64,000 bases of DNA. Origin: Laetmonice hystrix (taxonomy: Eukaryota). Location: positions 16,802,001 to 16,866,000 of the forward strand of contig OZ249441.1 in assembly GCA_965235115.1 (NCBI GenBank), in the 5' to 3' direction. The position numbers were made by a program. Every line of letters begins with the position of its first letter. The first letter of the stretch is position 1. Positions 57,919-63,900 of this stretch are shown one piece after another.

Positions 57919-60900
57919 CTATAGAAACCGCATAGTTAGGTACATGTCATATGTCACAATAACATCTATAAATCTCACAAACTTAAAAAAACTAGACCTC
58001 TTGTCTAGCATTAGCCACAATATATTATTGTAAAATGGACATTTATACTGCCTGCAAGTACCAGAGTCTGAACTATAATTAGCAATGACAAGCAAGTCAA
58101 AAGGAGTTAATATTTTGTAAATTTTATAAATAGTCTTTAGGCCCATGTGGAAATCATTCTGAGGAGTAGCAGCCCTGACAGGAGGACACGCAGCTGCTGC
58201 CATCTATTGGCAACATCACCGTAGAGCGCCCTCTGGTATGGTCATACAGAACACAACGAGGCACCATATGGGTGCATTTAGTGCAAGTCATGACTCGATC
58301 AAGTGTAGCAGCTCCAGATCATATCGTCTCAATAGCACCACCAACATTTTCTATTGTTTTGAATTAAGACCTCCAAGTCTTTTCCCATCATGGTTCATTT
58401 TGACACTCATAAATTCAACGTATTACCGGTGTTATGTAAGCATCTAATCTACCGGTATTTTAAAATATTTAGCTTTTGCAGGATTAAGTCCCCATAGGCA
58501 CCTCCGCTTTGCCGACCAATGGTAACGGTGCTATAAATAGCACAGTGGTTCCAGCAAGTCATTAACATAAGGAGCACGGGGTTCTGTGCTCTGCAACGAT
58601 TGGTTGCCTCTGCCCTGCTGCGCTCTGACATCACCGTCCGGCAGGCTTACCCTTGATATGTTAATTCCTGGCCAAATTTTCAGATTTTGTCCCCAAATAT
58701 CTCTTGATCTGTACAAATTACATATGGCATGTTATATATTGCCAAAGTCCTGACGGTACGGGCTACATGATGGTGCTATCAGCTTAATTTCGCTATTTGG
58801 ATCCCAACTTGACATTTTTGATCATTCCGCGATCCAACCACTGGATAATAAAATTTAACAAGTTTCTTACCAAATTGTCAAAACTTCTGAAGTGTTCACC
58901 CCCTTTCCAGTCCAATCTACGGAAAAGAAGCTGCAAGGAAATGACAACATGAGTCAGGGAGTCGATGCGAACTAGGGTCATTTTATCGCCCCGAACTAGC
59001 AAACTGGAGGTCTACTAACATCCAATAAGATAATATAGTAACCTATGATTGTTATTTTACTACGAGAAACACGTTTTGCCGTGAATGAATGGAATCGTAG
59101 TAAGAGGGGGTTCGCTCACCTTGTGTTCTTCCAATTCCTGTTTCAGTACCTACAAGACAAAGGAACACCATTAGATATGGACCGGAATGATAAACCAAAT
59201 CGACAACGGGAAAGGTACTTACCTCAGCTGCTCCTTTGCATGGTCCCGAAGACAGGAATCGAGCGATTAAGAAATAGAGTTCTGAAAGAAAACAAACCAA
59301 TATTTCAGAACACATGGTCTTTGGTATCGGCGAGAAGACGACGGTGTATTCGAACAAACATCCGATTTGAACCAACCTAACTCCAACTGAGAGACATCCT
59401 CCTCTCTGTGAGCTCCTCCAGACATCTTAGAAGTGTCTATCTGTTCACAAAACTACATAATAGCCATATCAATACGAAGGAATTATATATTACGAAGTCG
59501 CCATTTTCATGTTATTTCAGACCATCAAAACGACGTTTGAATTCATCACAATCGACCAGGGTCATGTGTCAATGCGCACACAAGAAGTAGATCCATAAAG
59601 ACGTTTAACTGCGGTTTTCTACTTATTATTCTGTTATAGAAAGCCATGCATATATATTGAACATATAAATTAAAGCATTTTATTAGGTACTTCTAAATTT
59701 TCCTGTTTGCAATGATGAGAAACATGACTAGGATAGCGCATTGATATAAAAATGTGGAGAGGCACGCACCTGCCATGTTGCCCGCGTGACGTCACGCCTG
59801 CATGTTGAGCCGGGGAAAGGCACGGGCAGAGAGCCGCAGAGGAGGCGGAGGATTTTAGTATGGACGGTGTGTGCTGACACTACGAGCCTAATGACATAGA
59901 AGAATTAGTCTAAACATAATCGTAAGTATCATTAGAAAGGTTTATGATATTCGGGTTTAATATCTTCGTTTGACACTTCTGAAAAGTTGCCGGTGGTATT
60001 ATTATAGCCCCATGAGTCGGACTATATTAGGCCTATTGTGACTTGTCATGTGAACGTTGGAGCTTCCAACGTGTCACCCGGGTCGGGGTCCATCGCACCA
60101 CTGCCACGGGTTTGGCCATCGTCTACATTTTTTCACCCTACTACAGGCAATCGATTTTCTGTACAGACGGTTTTATTGTGTACGTTTTTACGTAAAGATG
60201 TTAGGGTCGCTGATTGTCTGTTTAAAAATATTCTGGTGCAACAATTTATTGGTCAAAGATGCTGGTGCCGAAGCTAGACAAGAGGCCGGTTGCACGAGTC
60301 AGTTGACGGGGCAGCCTGGCCGCACAGGCCGGCGCCGCGGACCATTTGGCATTTCGTTCATGTATTTGATCATCGCGATTAGTTAGCGTTTTGCCCAAGA
60401 TCCTAGCCGAGTGACAGTAGATTTGAAGTAAAAGAAGTTACGATCTTTTCTGGAATTTTCGTCTGAATTATTACGCCTTGGAGACGTAGTTCTTGATGTA
60501 ATTATTCCAGTGGAGAGCCAACTACGCGGCTCCAGGGTTAGCCCGGTCCCCGCCACCGGCCGCGTTCGTTCCGGGCGAGTCGCGCCGGGGCCTGCCTCCC
60601 CGGCGGCCCGTGTCCAACACTGGGCGAGGGAGCGGTCAAGAGGGAGGAACCGCCCACTTTTGAACATCAGTTGAATTCCCCCCCCCCCCTAAATTCTGGA
60701 CGATGTTATTTTTATCATCCAACTATCATGATCATATTTATCATTACTATATATTTTAGGCCTACGTCAAATTTTGCCCGATGGTTAGCCCCCCCCCCCC
60801 CCAAAAAAAAAGGTTAGCCCCCCCTAAAAAAATTCCTGGATCCGCCCATGACATCGTCCAGACTTTTGACTTTGACTGAATCACAACTCAAAAATATTGA

Positions 60901-63900
60901 TCACTGACGCTGAAACTATAATTAATGGAGAAAAACAGAAAGAATCGCCATTCAATAAGACTAAGAGTGCCTGGTAGCCATGACATTCCACCAGAAAATT
61001 ATTCCTAGAATAAATCTTACAGTTTTATGAAAATGTTGCTTTATAAACAAGATCTGTAATTTCAGACCCTATTTTGTGCTCCAAAATTCAGCAAATGTCA
61101 CCAAATTACACCTTAAATTTTCTGCAGTGGGCATAACCTCCCCTAGAAGCTTCGCACCTTTGGTACTCGCATGGATGGCCCAGAAGTACACATGTATTGA
61201 CCACAGTGCAGTACATCACATTGTTAAAAAGGAACGATTGCACTCGCACCCCTTAGTGCCAAAATCGATTTTGGGAGGATGAAACCCCCCCCCCCCCATA
61301 ATCATGGCGAAAAATGCCATTTTTTTAATGAGCAAGCACCCTTTTTAGGTTGTGAATTCATCCTTGTGATCAGGGTGCCCTTCCGAACCTCGGTCTGGCC
61401 CCCCAGAAATTTTAGGCTGTGCACGGCTCAGATGCTCCTCACAAAAGCGGTGTGTGTAGGCCTACGTGTGAGTCAGTTGGCATGATGCACTGCTGTGGCC
61501 ACCACGATACCTCGCCACTCCTCCCTAACACAGAATCTCTCCAAGGACACCTGTGGGACTGCCTTTAACGGGCAGTTGCCTTTAATTGCGAATTATTAGG
61601 AAGGGATAGATAGTGTGACCACATAGCCTGTATTCAATTTGTCAATCTTGCTAAATCCTGAGATTTGAAGGACAAGAAAGTTTCAGTGTCTGCATTTTGC
61701 TTCATGTCTGTTGAAGGTGTGAGGTAAGCTTTACAACAATGTCCTGGATTCAAGAAAAGTCTGACAGAACCTGGATACAAAAGTGTTTTGCCAAGATTCT
61801 AAAGGCTGGCCCTATCCCACATCATGTTGCTTTTATCATGGATGGAAATCGGCGGTTTGCCAAGAAGAACTGCATAGACCGAGCTGAGGGACATCTCCAA
61901 GGCTTCAATAAATTAGCAGAGGTATGTACCATAATTTGATTAAATTTATTGTACCAGTACTTGTGTATGTATGATATTCAATCTTACAAGATCAACGCTA
62001 GGCCTATGTCTACTCCTTAAATCCATGTCCATTGGGGTCTAATTGACTCAGACTCAAACGTGGGATAAATGGCCACAATTGGAGGAACATTCTTTTCAAA
62101 AGTTTCACCATCATGTTTTGAATATGTACATGTAATCAGAACCTCCTGCATTATTTCCCCAAAAGGAGCCAATCCCCTGCAAAATGTTAATAAACAGCAA
62201 GGTAGAAAACCCTTGGCAGGTCTGAAAAAAAACGACAAAATTTGCAAGTTCCACTTCCAATTCACTGAGTCATTATAAATTTGTACTGTATCAGAAATAA
62301 TGCAAAATTATAGAAAATATCACATCACATTATGTATAGCACTCGCCCCACCAATTGGCAAATCACTCCACCTAGTGGCACATACTGATTTACTGGTATG
62401 TGACTAAACTATTTTCAGACCTTAGAATGGTGTCTGGACCTGGGCATCACAGAGGTCACTGTTTATGCCTTCAGTATTGAAAACTTCAAACGTGCCAAGG
62501 ATGAAGTTGATGCTCTGATGGAGATTGCCAGGCAGAAGTTTGCCAGACTAATGGAAGAAAGGTGGGCTTTTATTGTTATTTTCTTTTGGGTTAGAAATAT
62601 ATTAACTTCCATAAATTCAAATGTGTACAGAAACTTTTGTACCCAATTATTTAAAGTAGCATAGCAAAAAGTATAAGACTTTTTTTCCCTGACAGAACCA
62701 TACAATAAAACGTATGGACCTGAAAAAAATTAGAACTGACTGTCCACTAATGCACCTACAAACAAGAGTTACAAGTAGACTTTATTATGCCATATTTCAT
62801 AATTGGGTTGGTATTTTAAAATTAATTTTTATTTAGAAATAAGTATAATTCTACTTTGTCTTTTTTTTTATTTAGAGAATTGATTGAAAAGCATGGTGTG
62901 TGCGTCAGAGTACTGGGAAACTTGCAACTTTTGCCCAGAGACATCCAGGAAATCATTGCTGAGGCAGTGGACTTCTCAAAACATAACACTAGGTAATGTG
63001 AAAACATTAATGTAGAAATATTTGTACTTGAAATCTGTTCAAGATTAGCACATCTTTCATCTATATATTAAATTATGCATTTCAATTTTGTATAAAGCAT
63101 TTGTTAATGTTAATGTTATAATGGAATTTCATCACCACTTTCTTTCTAGAGCTATCTTAAATGTGTGCTTTGCATACACATCCCGAGATGAGATGTGTGC
63201 AGCAATGAGAGAGATAGCTGAGGGTGTCCAGTTAGGGCTTATCAGAGAAACGTAAGTCCTTGAAGGCATCATTCGTCCTCTCAGTGAAAGAGATGCCACT
63301 GTTTCCCTGAAATCAATATTTGTAATATACCCAAACAGGCAGCAACAAATCTAGCTGACATTCTGACATACATCAGAGTCGGACAAATCCACTAGCCTGA
63401 GGTCCAGGACCTTCCTATTATTGCTTTGGGTTTGTGAAAATATATCAAGGGAGTCCGACGGACTCTTGCCCAGTGTTGGTTAAACCTACTGTCATTGATG
63501 GGTGGTATCTGTCAGTACCTGGTGCCAGACATGTAGCAGGTCACAAACCCCCAACCTCCAAGGATGCTGGAGGTCATTCCATGAAATTGTGGAGTTTCAG
63601 ACCAGTGGACTCAAGAGCAGGACCAGTAATTATTCTGAGTTACTGGTCCTGGACTCGTAAAAAAGAAATTCCGACTCTGTACACGTTTACATGTTTTTGC
63701 CTAATTGCACCCAAATTGTAAGTTGTATTGCTAAACAAAACAAGGTGTAGATTTTCTTTTAGATAAAATATTAGTGCCATAGACAGTAATGCTATCTTGA
63801 TAAACAAAAAAGTTATGCTGTAGCTGTGCATGCAATTACAGTAAATATGGTGTGTTGCAGTGACATCAGTGAGCGTCTCATAGAACAGTGCCTGTACACC

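What the first reader, a model, noticed from the sequence alone, without database searches (positions are those of the whole stretch)
59776..61739. PHIP/BRWD and DHDDS head-to-head: likely ancestral linkage that vertebrate paralogons broke up
Seen here: the two genes diverge from a <2-kb CpG-rich interval. Established human gene order: BRWD1 next to HMGN1 (21q22), PHIP next to HMGN3 (6q14), BRWD3 next to HMGN5 (Xq21), each with an SH3BGR-family gene nearby, while DHDDS lies next to HMGN2 near SH3BGRL3 (1p36), with no BRWD copy. Inference: these four regions are whole-genome-duplication paralogues of one block. The direct BRWD-DHDDS adjacency here would be the pre-duplication state, with reciprocal loss of DHDDS in three copies and BRWD in the fourth. 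It also marks where the vertebrate-specific HMGN family arose.
Basis: partly seen in the sequence, partly recalled or inferred. Interest (0 to 1): 0.68.

Follow-up and report, generated by a model that had tools for sequence, protein, structure and literature searches.

The report
Old BRWD–DHDDS head-to-head gene pair
Two ordinary housekeeping genes sit back to back here, as they do in several snails, and vertebrate gene orders suggest that the vertebrate-only HMGN chromatin genes arose between this same pair.

Summary
The core observation holds. A complete BRWD/PHIP gene lies on the minus strand at 44300-59425. The first five exons of DHDDS lie on the plus strand from 61739. The two genes diverge from one spacer.

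Three details need correcting:
- The start codons are 2,313 bp apart. 59776 is not the BRWD start.
- Only the BRWD-side half of the spacer keeps its CpGs (o/e 1.06). The DHDDS-side 0.9 kb is depleted (0.43).
- The window looks spiralian, most like molluscs, not an invertebrate deuterostome.

The pairing is not private to this genome. BRWD and DHDDS carry consecutive annotation numbers in Lottia, Littorina and Pomacea. In all 7 spiralian species where I could place both genes, they share a contig.

Gene lists in papers put HMGN between BRWD and the SH3BGR side on 6q14, 21q22 and Xq21. The 1p36 orthologue reads HMGN2-DHDDS-...-SH3BGRL3. This fits an ancestral order BRWD-HMGN-DHDDS.

No invertebrate deuterostome could be tested. 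Two chelicerates show the genes on different contigs. The result is a modest, plausible synteny inference.

The parts
44300..59425 (-). BRWD/PHIP orthologue, complete coding region. The stop codon is at 44300-44302 and the ATG at 59425-59423. About 21 coding exons.
   Evidence: Collinear tblastn of full-length Pecten, Owenia, Octopus and Mytilus proteins. Pfam WD40, BRWD_AD and bromodomain pieces. N-terminus compared with seven homologues.
59377..59440 (-). BRWD exon carrying the start codon (MSGGAHREEDVSQLEL). The acceptor AG is at 59442-59441 and the donor GT at 59376-59375.
   Evidence: Sequence read. Its length before the ELYFLIARFL motif matches homologues.
59770..59870 (-). Putative non-coding first exon of BRWD. 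The 3' end is at 59770 (CAG|GTGCGT). The 5' end is unknown.
   Evidence: Inference from sequence alone. The palindrome is not significant by itself: 2 matches in the window, 0.7 expected, and 10 of 100 shuffles reach 2.
59426..61738 (.). Spacer between the two start codons, 2,313 bp, with no recognisable gene.
   Evidence: The 10 largest open frames gave no Pfam family at E<=0.1. No HMGN-like core motif in any of the six frames. No Rfam family. Not repeated elsewhere in the window, apart from poly-C/A tracts.
58801..60800 (.). The only non-repeat stretch of the window that keeps its CpGs (o/e about 1.0-1.06). It covers the BRWD 5' end and the left half of the spacer. I take it as the promoter region.
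   Evidence: All 12 of the highest-CpG windows, out of 623 sliding 1.8-kb windows, overlap 58401-61300.
60801..61738 (.). DHDDS-proximal part of the spacer. It is CpG-depleted (o/e 0.43) and contains poly-C tracts.
61739..61921 (+). DHDDS exon 1, 61 codons. It begins at the first ATG of its frame and holds the FIMDGNRR motif.
   Evidence: Pfam PF01255 E=1.7e-6. Human DHDDS 6z1n_A E=1.4e-19, aligned from Met1. The best named hits are gastropod DHDDS proteins.
62419..63975 (+). DHDDS exons 2-5: 62419-62561, 62876-62992, 63150-63251 and 63861-63975. The gene continues beyond the window.
   Evidence: Frames and splice borders. Collinear Pfam PF01255 segments. Five tblastn segments per gastropod DHDDS protein, about 70% identical.

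Best explanation
What it is: an intact, divergently transcribed pair of two broadly needed genes in a spiralian genome, most like a mollusc's.
- One gene is the single BRWD/PHIP-type chromatin reader.
- The other is DHDDS, the catalytic cis-prenyltransferase subunit that makes dolichol.
- They are separated by 2.3 kb between start codons.

Shown:
- The gene identities, the orientation and the spacing.
- A CpG-undepleted domain at the BRWD 5' end, flanked by CpG-depleted gene bodies.

Inferred, first step: the pair is an old neighbourhood.
- It is kept in gastropods (consecutive gene numbering in 3 species).
- It is probably kept in scallops, and nearly so in an annelid.

Inferred, second step: the same neighbourhood existed in the vertebrate ancestor before the two genome duplications.
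- The new HMGN gene lay between the two genes, giving the order BRWD-HMGN-DHDDS-...-SH3BGR.
- Afterwards DHDDS survived in one copy of the block (1p36) and BRWD in the other three.

How it works, inferred: the CpG-undepleted 2 kb is the promoter region.
- The CpG depletion that begins about 0.9 kb upstream of the DHDDS ATG suggests that DHDDS transcription may start inside that domain and cross a 5' UTR intron.
- The two genes would then share a bidirectional promoter, and that could be what has held them together.
For: Gene identities and arrangement.

CpG pattern.

Spiralian origin of the window:
- The five best named DHDDS exon-1 hits are gastropods, at 66-75% identity.
- Summed over separate exon alignments, DHDDS is about 70% identical to Lottia, Littorina and Batillaria.
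- For BRWD, the 11 best summed scores include 10 named spiralians and one unnamed protein.
- The best-scoring group is Spiralia in 19 of 21 exon bins.

Neighbourhood elsewhere:
- Pomacea: PVD28489.1/PVD28490.1, locus tags C0Q70_11077/11078.
- Littorina: KAK7108774.1/KAK7108775.1 and XP_070191342.1/XP_070191343.1.
- Lottia: ESP01057.1/ESP01058.1, on one 572,286-bp scaffold.
- Owenia: CAH1798894.1 against CAH1798900.1 on one 37.3-Mb contig. In the same numbering style, Branchiostoma lanceolatum isoforms step by 3. So at most one entry lies between the two Owenia genes.
- Patella, Pecten and Ylistrum: the two proteins have matching contig lengths of 94,032,750, 51,398,101 and 871,910 bp.
- In total, 7 of the 7 spiralian species where both proteins surfaced have them on a contig of the same length.

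Vertebrate orders come from passages in papers:
- PMC5732689.
- PMC4593198.
- PMC12587522.
- bioRxiv 10.1101/2022.07.21.501032, figure legend.
- bioRxiv 10.1101/2023.11.17.567541, figure legend: dhdds and Hmgn2 loci shown for human, mouse, zebrafish and medaka.

Irimia et al. 2012 (PMC3514665, passages) report that conserved ancient gene pairs are enriched for 5'-5' orientation and short spacers.
Against: - No invertebrate deuterostome, tunicate, lamprey or cnidarian locus was examined, because the tools hold no eukaryote genome context.
- Tornini et al. 2023 (PMC10188112, passages) place an APEX1-like ORF, not DHDDS, at the HMGN1-syntenic site of amphioxus between Wrb and Brwd1.
- Chelicerates: 0 of 2 have the genes on one contig.
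  - Tachypleus: 161,334,041 against 196,269,053 bp.
  - Centruroides: 278,256 or 2,827,688 against 97,028 bp.
  - Horseshoe-crab duplications and short scaffolds weaken this.
- Adjacency in the other genomes is read from annotation numbering and contig lengths, not from coordinates. Their orientations are unknown.
- The Patella numbers are 87 apart.
- From recall, the vertebrate genes are co-oriented, so the head-to-head state here is not simply the pre-duplication state.
- The transcription starts are unknown, and the start codons are 2.3 kb apart. A shared promoter is therefore unproven.
- The CRE-like palindrome is not significant.
Confidence: 0.6

Rival explanations
1. The linkage is spiralian only. 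BRWD and DHDDS became neighbours within Spiralia. The vertebrate pattern (HMGN next to BRWD three times and next to DHDDS once) arose independently and is a coincidence.
For: All positive cases are spiralian. Two chelicerates show different contigs. The amphioxus report names another gene at the site. The recalled orientation differs between this window and vertebrates.
Against: By my arithmetic, a chance landing of DHDDS directly beside one of four HMGN loci is of order 1 in a few thousand. DHDDS also lies on the SH3BGR side of HMGN2, exactly where the complementary order predicts.
Confidence: 0.22
2. The pair has been retained passively. Each gene has its own promoter, and the neighbourhood has survived only because few breakpoints happened to fall in a 2-kb spacer.
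For: The start codons are 2.3 kb apart. The 0.9 kb next to DHDDS is CpG-poor and unlike the BRWD side. No shared motif was significant. The vertebrate lineage tolerated an inserted gene and then separation of the two.
Against: The pair is kept across patellogastropod and caenogastropod snails. Conserved pairs are enriched for 5'-5' orientation.
Confidence: 0.4
3. The finding is an artefact: a misassembly, or a dead gene copy placed beside the other gene.
For: None found.
Against: There are no N in the window. Both genes have open exons with canonical borders and align collinearly to full-length relatives. The same pairing appears in independent assemblies.
Confidence: 0.02

Closest known systems
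Conserved ancestral microsyntenic pairs (Irimia et al. 2012, Genome Res; PMC3514665, passages read)
   Same: Two unrelated genes are kept as neighbours across distant animals, in 5'-5' orientation with a short spacer. That paper finds this class to be enriched.
   Different: Here conservation as direct neighbours is shown only within Spiralia. In vertebrates the pair is interrupted by HMGN and then split between duplicated blocks, so a human-anchored survey would not list it. I did not see the paper's pair lists, because supplements are closed.
Vertebrate block BRWD-HMGN-(GET1/LCA5)-SH3BGR on 21q22, 6q14 and Xq21, with HMGN2-DHDDS-...-SH3BGRL3 on 1p36
   Same: The same two anchor genes, BRWD and DHDDS, flank the position where HMGN lies.
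   Different: The window has no HMGN-like frame. No SH3BGR, LCA5 or GET1 was recognised in the 44 kb downstream of BRWD. Only gene lists in papers were seen, not coordinates or strands.
Amphioxus HMGN1-syntenic region with an APEX1-like ORF (Tornini et al. 2023, eLife; PMC10188112, passages read)
   Same: It addresses the same question: what lay next to BRWD before HMGN existed.
   Different: It names a different neighbour and proposes that HMGN derives from that gene's N-terminus. DHDDS does not occur in its main text. The figure supplements were not available to me.
Bidirectional promoters of housekeeping gene pairs, for example HSPD1-HSPE1 as cited
   Same: Divergent orientation, with a CpG-undepleted region between CpG-depleted gene bodies.
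   Different: The usual criterion is transcription starts less than 1 kb apart. Here the starts are unknown and the start codons are 2.3 kb apart.

Membership tests
BRWD/PHIP family (BRWD1, PHIP/BRWD2, BRWD3) | N-terminal WD40 propeller | tested here: met
   PF00400 E=1.8e-18 on 56071-56508. Weaker WD40 hits on 54980-55114 and 53891-54094.
BRWD/PHIP family (BRWD1, PHIP/BRWD2, BRWD3) | BRWD/PHIP ancillary domain | tested here: met
   PF25313 E=8.1e-20, 70.8 bits against a cut-off of 40, on 49321-49644.
BRWD/PHIP family (BRWD1, PHIP/BRWD2, BRWD3) | Two bromodomains | tested here: inconclusive
   First bromodomain: 48432-48797 (E=1e-10) plus 48198-48326 (E=1.3e-3). Second: only its C-terminal piece, 46791-46889, hits (E=5.5e-4, 20.3 bits, under the 21.7 cut-off). 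47570-47719 gave nothing. Exons were searched one at a time. tblastn to full-length relatives is collinear through both.
BRWD/PHIP family (BRWD1, PHIP/BRWD2, BRWD3) | End-to-end collinearity with named orthologues | tested here: met
   17-19 ordered non-overlapping segments, 50-55% identical, from the N-terminus to the last residues.
DHDDS (eukaryotic long-chain cis-prenyltransferase catalytic subunit) | Prenyltransf domain with the N-terminal DGNRR motif | tested here: met
   Five exons cover PF01255 positions 1-183 in order. FIMDGNRR is present in exon 1.
DHDDS (eukaryotic long-chain cis-prenyltransferase catalytic subunit) | Closest to DHDDS rather than to bacterial UPPS or other cis-prenyltransferases | tested here: met
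   Human DHDDS E=1.4e-19, against 8e-8 or weaker for bacterial and plant enzymes. The best database hits are named DHDDS.
DHDDS (eukaryotic long-chain cis-prenyltransferase catalytic subunit) | C-terminal part of the enzyme | not testable with these tools
   The gene runs off the window at 64000.
Conserved ancestral microsyntenic pair | Direct adjacency in more than one distant lineage | tested here: inconclusive
   Consecutive numbering in 3 gastropods, near-consecutive in one annelid, and the same contig in 7 of 7 spiralians. Different contigs in 2 of 2 chelicerates. Deuterostome invertebrates were not examined. All of this is read from numbering, not coordinates.
Bidirectional promoter pair | Transcription starts less than about 1 kb apart on opposite strands | not testable with these tools
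   No transcript data. The start codons are 2,313 bp apart. The CpG-undepleted domain is 58801-60800.
Four-fold vertebrate duplication block (1p36 / 6q14 / 21q22 / Xq21) | Several gene families with one member in each region, in the same order | tested here: inconclusive
   Gene lists in papers show HMGN and SH3BGR members in all four regions, BRWD in three and LCA5 in 6q14. LCA5L on chromosome 21 appeared only in an abstract listing. No gene trees, strands or coordinates were seen.

The most novel reading that the evidence does not exclude
The HMGN family was born inside the ancient BRWD-DHDDS spacer in the vertebrate stem lineage. It could have arisen, for example, from a promoter-associated transcript of this divergent pair, rather than from an APEX1-like gene. 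If so, the spacer seen here is the empty pre-HMGN site, and the origin of a vertebrate-only chromatin protein can be traced locus by locus through amphioxus, tunicates and lamprey.
Probability: 0.2. Interest if true: 0.6.

Novelty: new member of a known kind. Interest (0 to 1): 0.4.

Why it matters
HMGN proteins are abundant nucleosome binders found only in vertebrates, and their origin is unsettled. If BRWD and DHDDS were neighbours before the vertebrate genome duplications, the birthplace of HMGN narrows to one short, identifiable spacer. That spacer can be compared across chordates. It also adds DHDDS as a marker tying 1p36 to the 6q14, 21q22 and Xq21 blocks. Beyond that, the locus is an ordinary pair of housekeeping genes.

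Tried and rejected
HMGN in the window: a search for an HMGN-like nucleosome-binding core motif (recalled, loose pattern) in all six frames found nothing. The 10 largest open frames of the spacer gave no Pfam family.

Other block genes downstream of BRWD: I looked for SH3BGR, LCA5, GET1 and APEX-like genes in 1-44299.
- A codon-usage score trained on the two genes found no strong coding candidate there.
- 30 open frames were sent to Pfam. Only one gave a hit above its curated cut-off, a tetraspanin exon.
- Short exons could have been missed.

RNA families: none at gathering score.

Repeats: the spacer is not repeated elsewhere in the window, apart from poly-C/A tracts.

CRE-like palindrome near the BRWD 5' end: not above chance.

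Fishing for a deuterostome DHDDS: I ran a whole-library search with the sea cucumber protein, built a quick tree to choose representatives (careful search unfinished) and looked up 10 of them.
- This gave scallops, a termite, a horseshoe crab, a scorpion, a flatworm and unnamed records.
- It gave no amphioxus, hemichordate or sea urchin.

Prior publication of a BRWD-DHDDS link: searches found none.
- The library lacks many subscription papers.
- The 2015 Mol Biol Evol paper on HMGN evolution is cited there but was not readable.
- Supplements, which may hold synteny tables, are closed.

Spliced models: none were built. Every search was done exon by exon, and identities were summed over separate alignments. 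The joined step was left out.

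
Full report
What is in the sequence. The window has no N.

DHDDS lies on the plus strand.
- An open frame starts at the first ATG of its frame, 61739.
- It continues through five exons with canonical borders: 61739-61921, 62419-62561, 62876-62992, 63150-63251 and 63861-63975.
- Searched one exon at a time, these match the Pfam cis-prenyltransferase model in collinear order, at profile positions 1-28, 31-71, 78-113, 116-140 and 147-183.
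- Exons 1, 2 and 5 score above the family cut-off. Exons 3 and 4 score below it on their own.
- Exon 1 aligns from the first methionine of human DHDDS (6z1n_A, E=1.4e-19). By my count 39 of 61 positions are identical, so the DNA is not human.
- The gene leaves the window at 64000.

BRWD/PHIP lies on the minus strand.
- Full-length proteins of Pecten, Owenia, Octopus and Mytilus align in order, from residues 16-18 at 59285 to their last residues near 44306-44315.
- Single exons hit WD40, the BRWD/PHIP ancillary domain (E=8e-20) and pieces of two bromodomains.
- Four of the seven BRWD pieces matched no Pfam family.
- The start codon is at 59425-59423. The N-terminus MSGGAHREEDVSQLEL followed by ELYFLIARFLSSGPC lines up with seven homologues.

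All searches were exon by exon, and the joined step was left out.

The spacer.
- The start codons are 2,313 bp apart.
It sits in what looks like a non-coding first exon ending in CAG|GTGCGT at 59770. Spliced to the next exon, it would open only a five-codon frame (inference).
- The spacer is not uniformly CpG-rich. 59776-60800 has CpG o/e 1.06. 60801-61738 has 0.43. The DHDDS body has 0.27 and the BRWD body 0.51.
- All 12 of the highest-CpG windows, out of 623 sliding 1.8-kb windows, overlap 58401-61300.
- The spacer holds no recognisable gene. There is no Pfam family in its 10 largest frames, no HMGN-like motif and no Rfam family.

Whose genome.
- The organism's own proteins are not in the searched collection. 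The best identities were 52% (63% over a partial alignment), 76% and 74%.
- The best named DHDDS hits are gastropods: Patella 75%, then Lottia and Littorina 70%.
- Summed over separate exon alignments, DHDDS is about 70% identical to Lottia, Littorina and Batillaria.
- BRWD is 50-55% identical to bivalves, Owenia, Pomacea, Lingula and Octopus. It is 51% identical to Saccoglossus and 49% to amphioxus.
- A spiralian gives the best score in 19 of 21 exon bins. Spiralians were also the best sampled group there, at 16 of 40 proteins.
- I take the window for a spiralian, most like a mollusc, and not for an invertebrate deuterostome.

Is the pairing private to this genome? No. The protein collection gives accession numbers and contig lengths.
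- Pomacea: BRWD is PVD28489.1 (C0Q70_11077) and DHDDS is PVD28490.1 (C0Q70_11078).
- Littorina: KAK7108775.1 and KAK7108774.1, which are also consecutive in RefSeq.
- Lottia: ESP01057.1 and ESP01058.1, on one 572-kb scaffold.
- Owenia: the two are six numbers apart on one chromosome. In the same numbering style, isoforms of one amphioxus gene step by three. So at most one entry lies between them.
- Patella: same chromosome length, numbers 87 apart. This is inconclusive.
- All 7 spiralian species where both proteins surfaced agree.
- Against this, Tachypleus and Centruroides have the two proteins on contigs of different length.
- All of this reads neighbourhood from numbering, not from coordinates, and says nothing about orientation.

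Vertebrates. Gene lists in papers give these orders:
- IRAK1BP1, PHIP, HMGN3, LCA5, SH3BGRL2 (PMC5732689).
- TBX22, BRWD3, HMGN5, SH3BGRL, POU3F4 (PMC4593198).
- BRWD1, HMGN1, GET1/WRB, SH3BGR (preprint legend).
- RPS6KA1, HMGN2, DHDDS, LIN28A, ZNF683, CRYBG2, CD52, UBXN11, SH3BGRL3 in cattle (PMC12587522).

A figure legend also shows the dhdds and Hmgn2 loci for human, mouse, zebrafish and medaka.

Taking SH3BGR as anchor, BRWD lies on one side of HMGN and DHDDS on the other. The simplest ancestor is BRWD-HMGN-DHDDS-...-SH3BGR.

From recall only, DHDDS and HMGN2 share a strand, and so do HMGN1, 3 and 5 with their BRWD neighbours. DHDDS would then have to be inverted relative to this window.

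What stays open.
- No invertebrate deuterostome was examined.
- Tornini et al. (PMC10188112) report an APEX1-like ORF at the HMGN1-syntenic place in amphioxus, between Wrb and Brwd1, and derive HMGN from it. Their main text does not mention DHDDS. Their figure supplements were not available.
- My attempt to recover deuterostome DHDDS accessions failed.
- I found no paper linking BRWD and DHDDS, within a library that lacks many journals and all supplements.

Mechanism. The CpG pattern fits a promoter kept free of methylation at the BRWD 5' end, flanked by methylated bodies of broadly expressed genes. This is established for invertebrates with mosaic methylation, and I apply it here by inference.

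CpG depletion begins about 0.9 kb before the DHDDS ATG. DHDDS may therefore start inside the CpG domain and share a two-way promoter with BRWD. Such pairs are the class that Irimia et al. found to be preferentially conserved. Without transcript data this is a proposal, not a result.

Verdict. The gene pair is real and ordinary, with a well-supported history in Spiralia. The link to the vertebrate HMGN blocks is plausible and not yet tested where it matters.

Noticed in passing
window 9703-9945 (-): A lone tetraspanin-like exon covering the end of TM1 through TM2 (Pfam PF00335, E=5e-9). No further tetraspanin exons were recognised nearby by motif or hydrophobicity scans.
   Followed up: partly
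window 1-44299: The 44 kb downstream of BRWD has no strong coding candidate by a codon-usage score. Only 1 of 30 open frames matched a Pfam family above its curated cut-off. The region is either gene-poor or holds short or unfamiliar exons.
   Followed up: partly
window 32750-33922: A tandem array of a 45-bp unit, 26 copies, 98% matching. It reads as a 410-codon open frame on the minus strand, which is a repeat artefact. With the bins at 59001-61000, its 1-kb bin is one of the only ones in the window with CpG o/e near 1.
   Followed up: no
window 15626-16427: A 396-bp unit duplicated in tandem, 98% identical.
   Followed up: no
window 39250-39282, within 39001-40000: A (GCC)n microsatellite inside the most GC-rich kilobase of the window (GC 0.56, CpG o/e 0.74). 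It produces arginine-run frames on both strands.
   Followed up: no
window 60680-60690, 60789-60833, 61285-61296; also 40679-40701, 13633-13676, 5040-5062: Recurrent poly-C tracts followed by poly-A. These are the only parts of the spacer with matches elsewhere in the window. They may be remnants of a dispersed repeat.
   Followed up: partly
window 59787-59794: A perfect TGACGTCA palindrome 17 bp upstream of the putative BRWD first-exon donor. It is not above chance by count: 2 in the window, 0.7 expected.
   Followed up: yes
Tachypleus tridentatus proteins P0284 and P0371: In a horseshoe crab, a lineage with its own genome duplications, BRWD and DHDDS lie on contigs of different length. This could be a parallel case of a pair split after duplication.
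   Followed up: no
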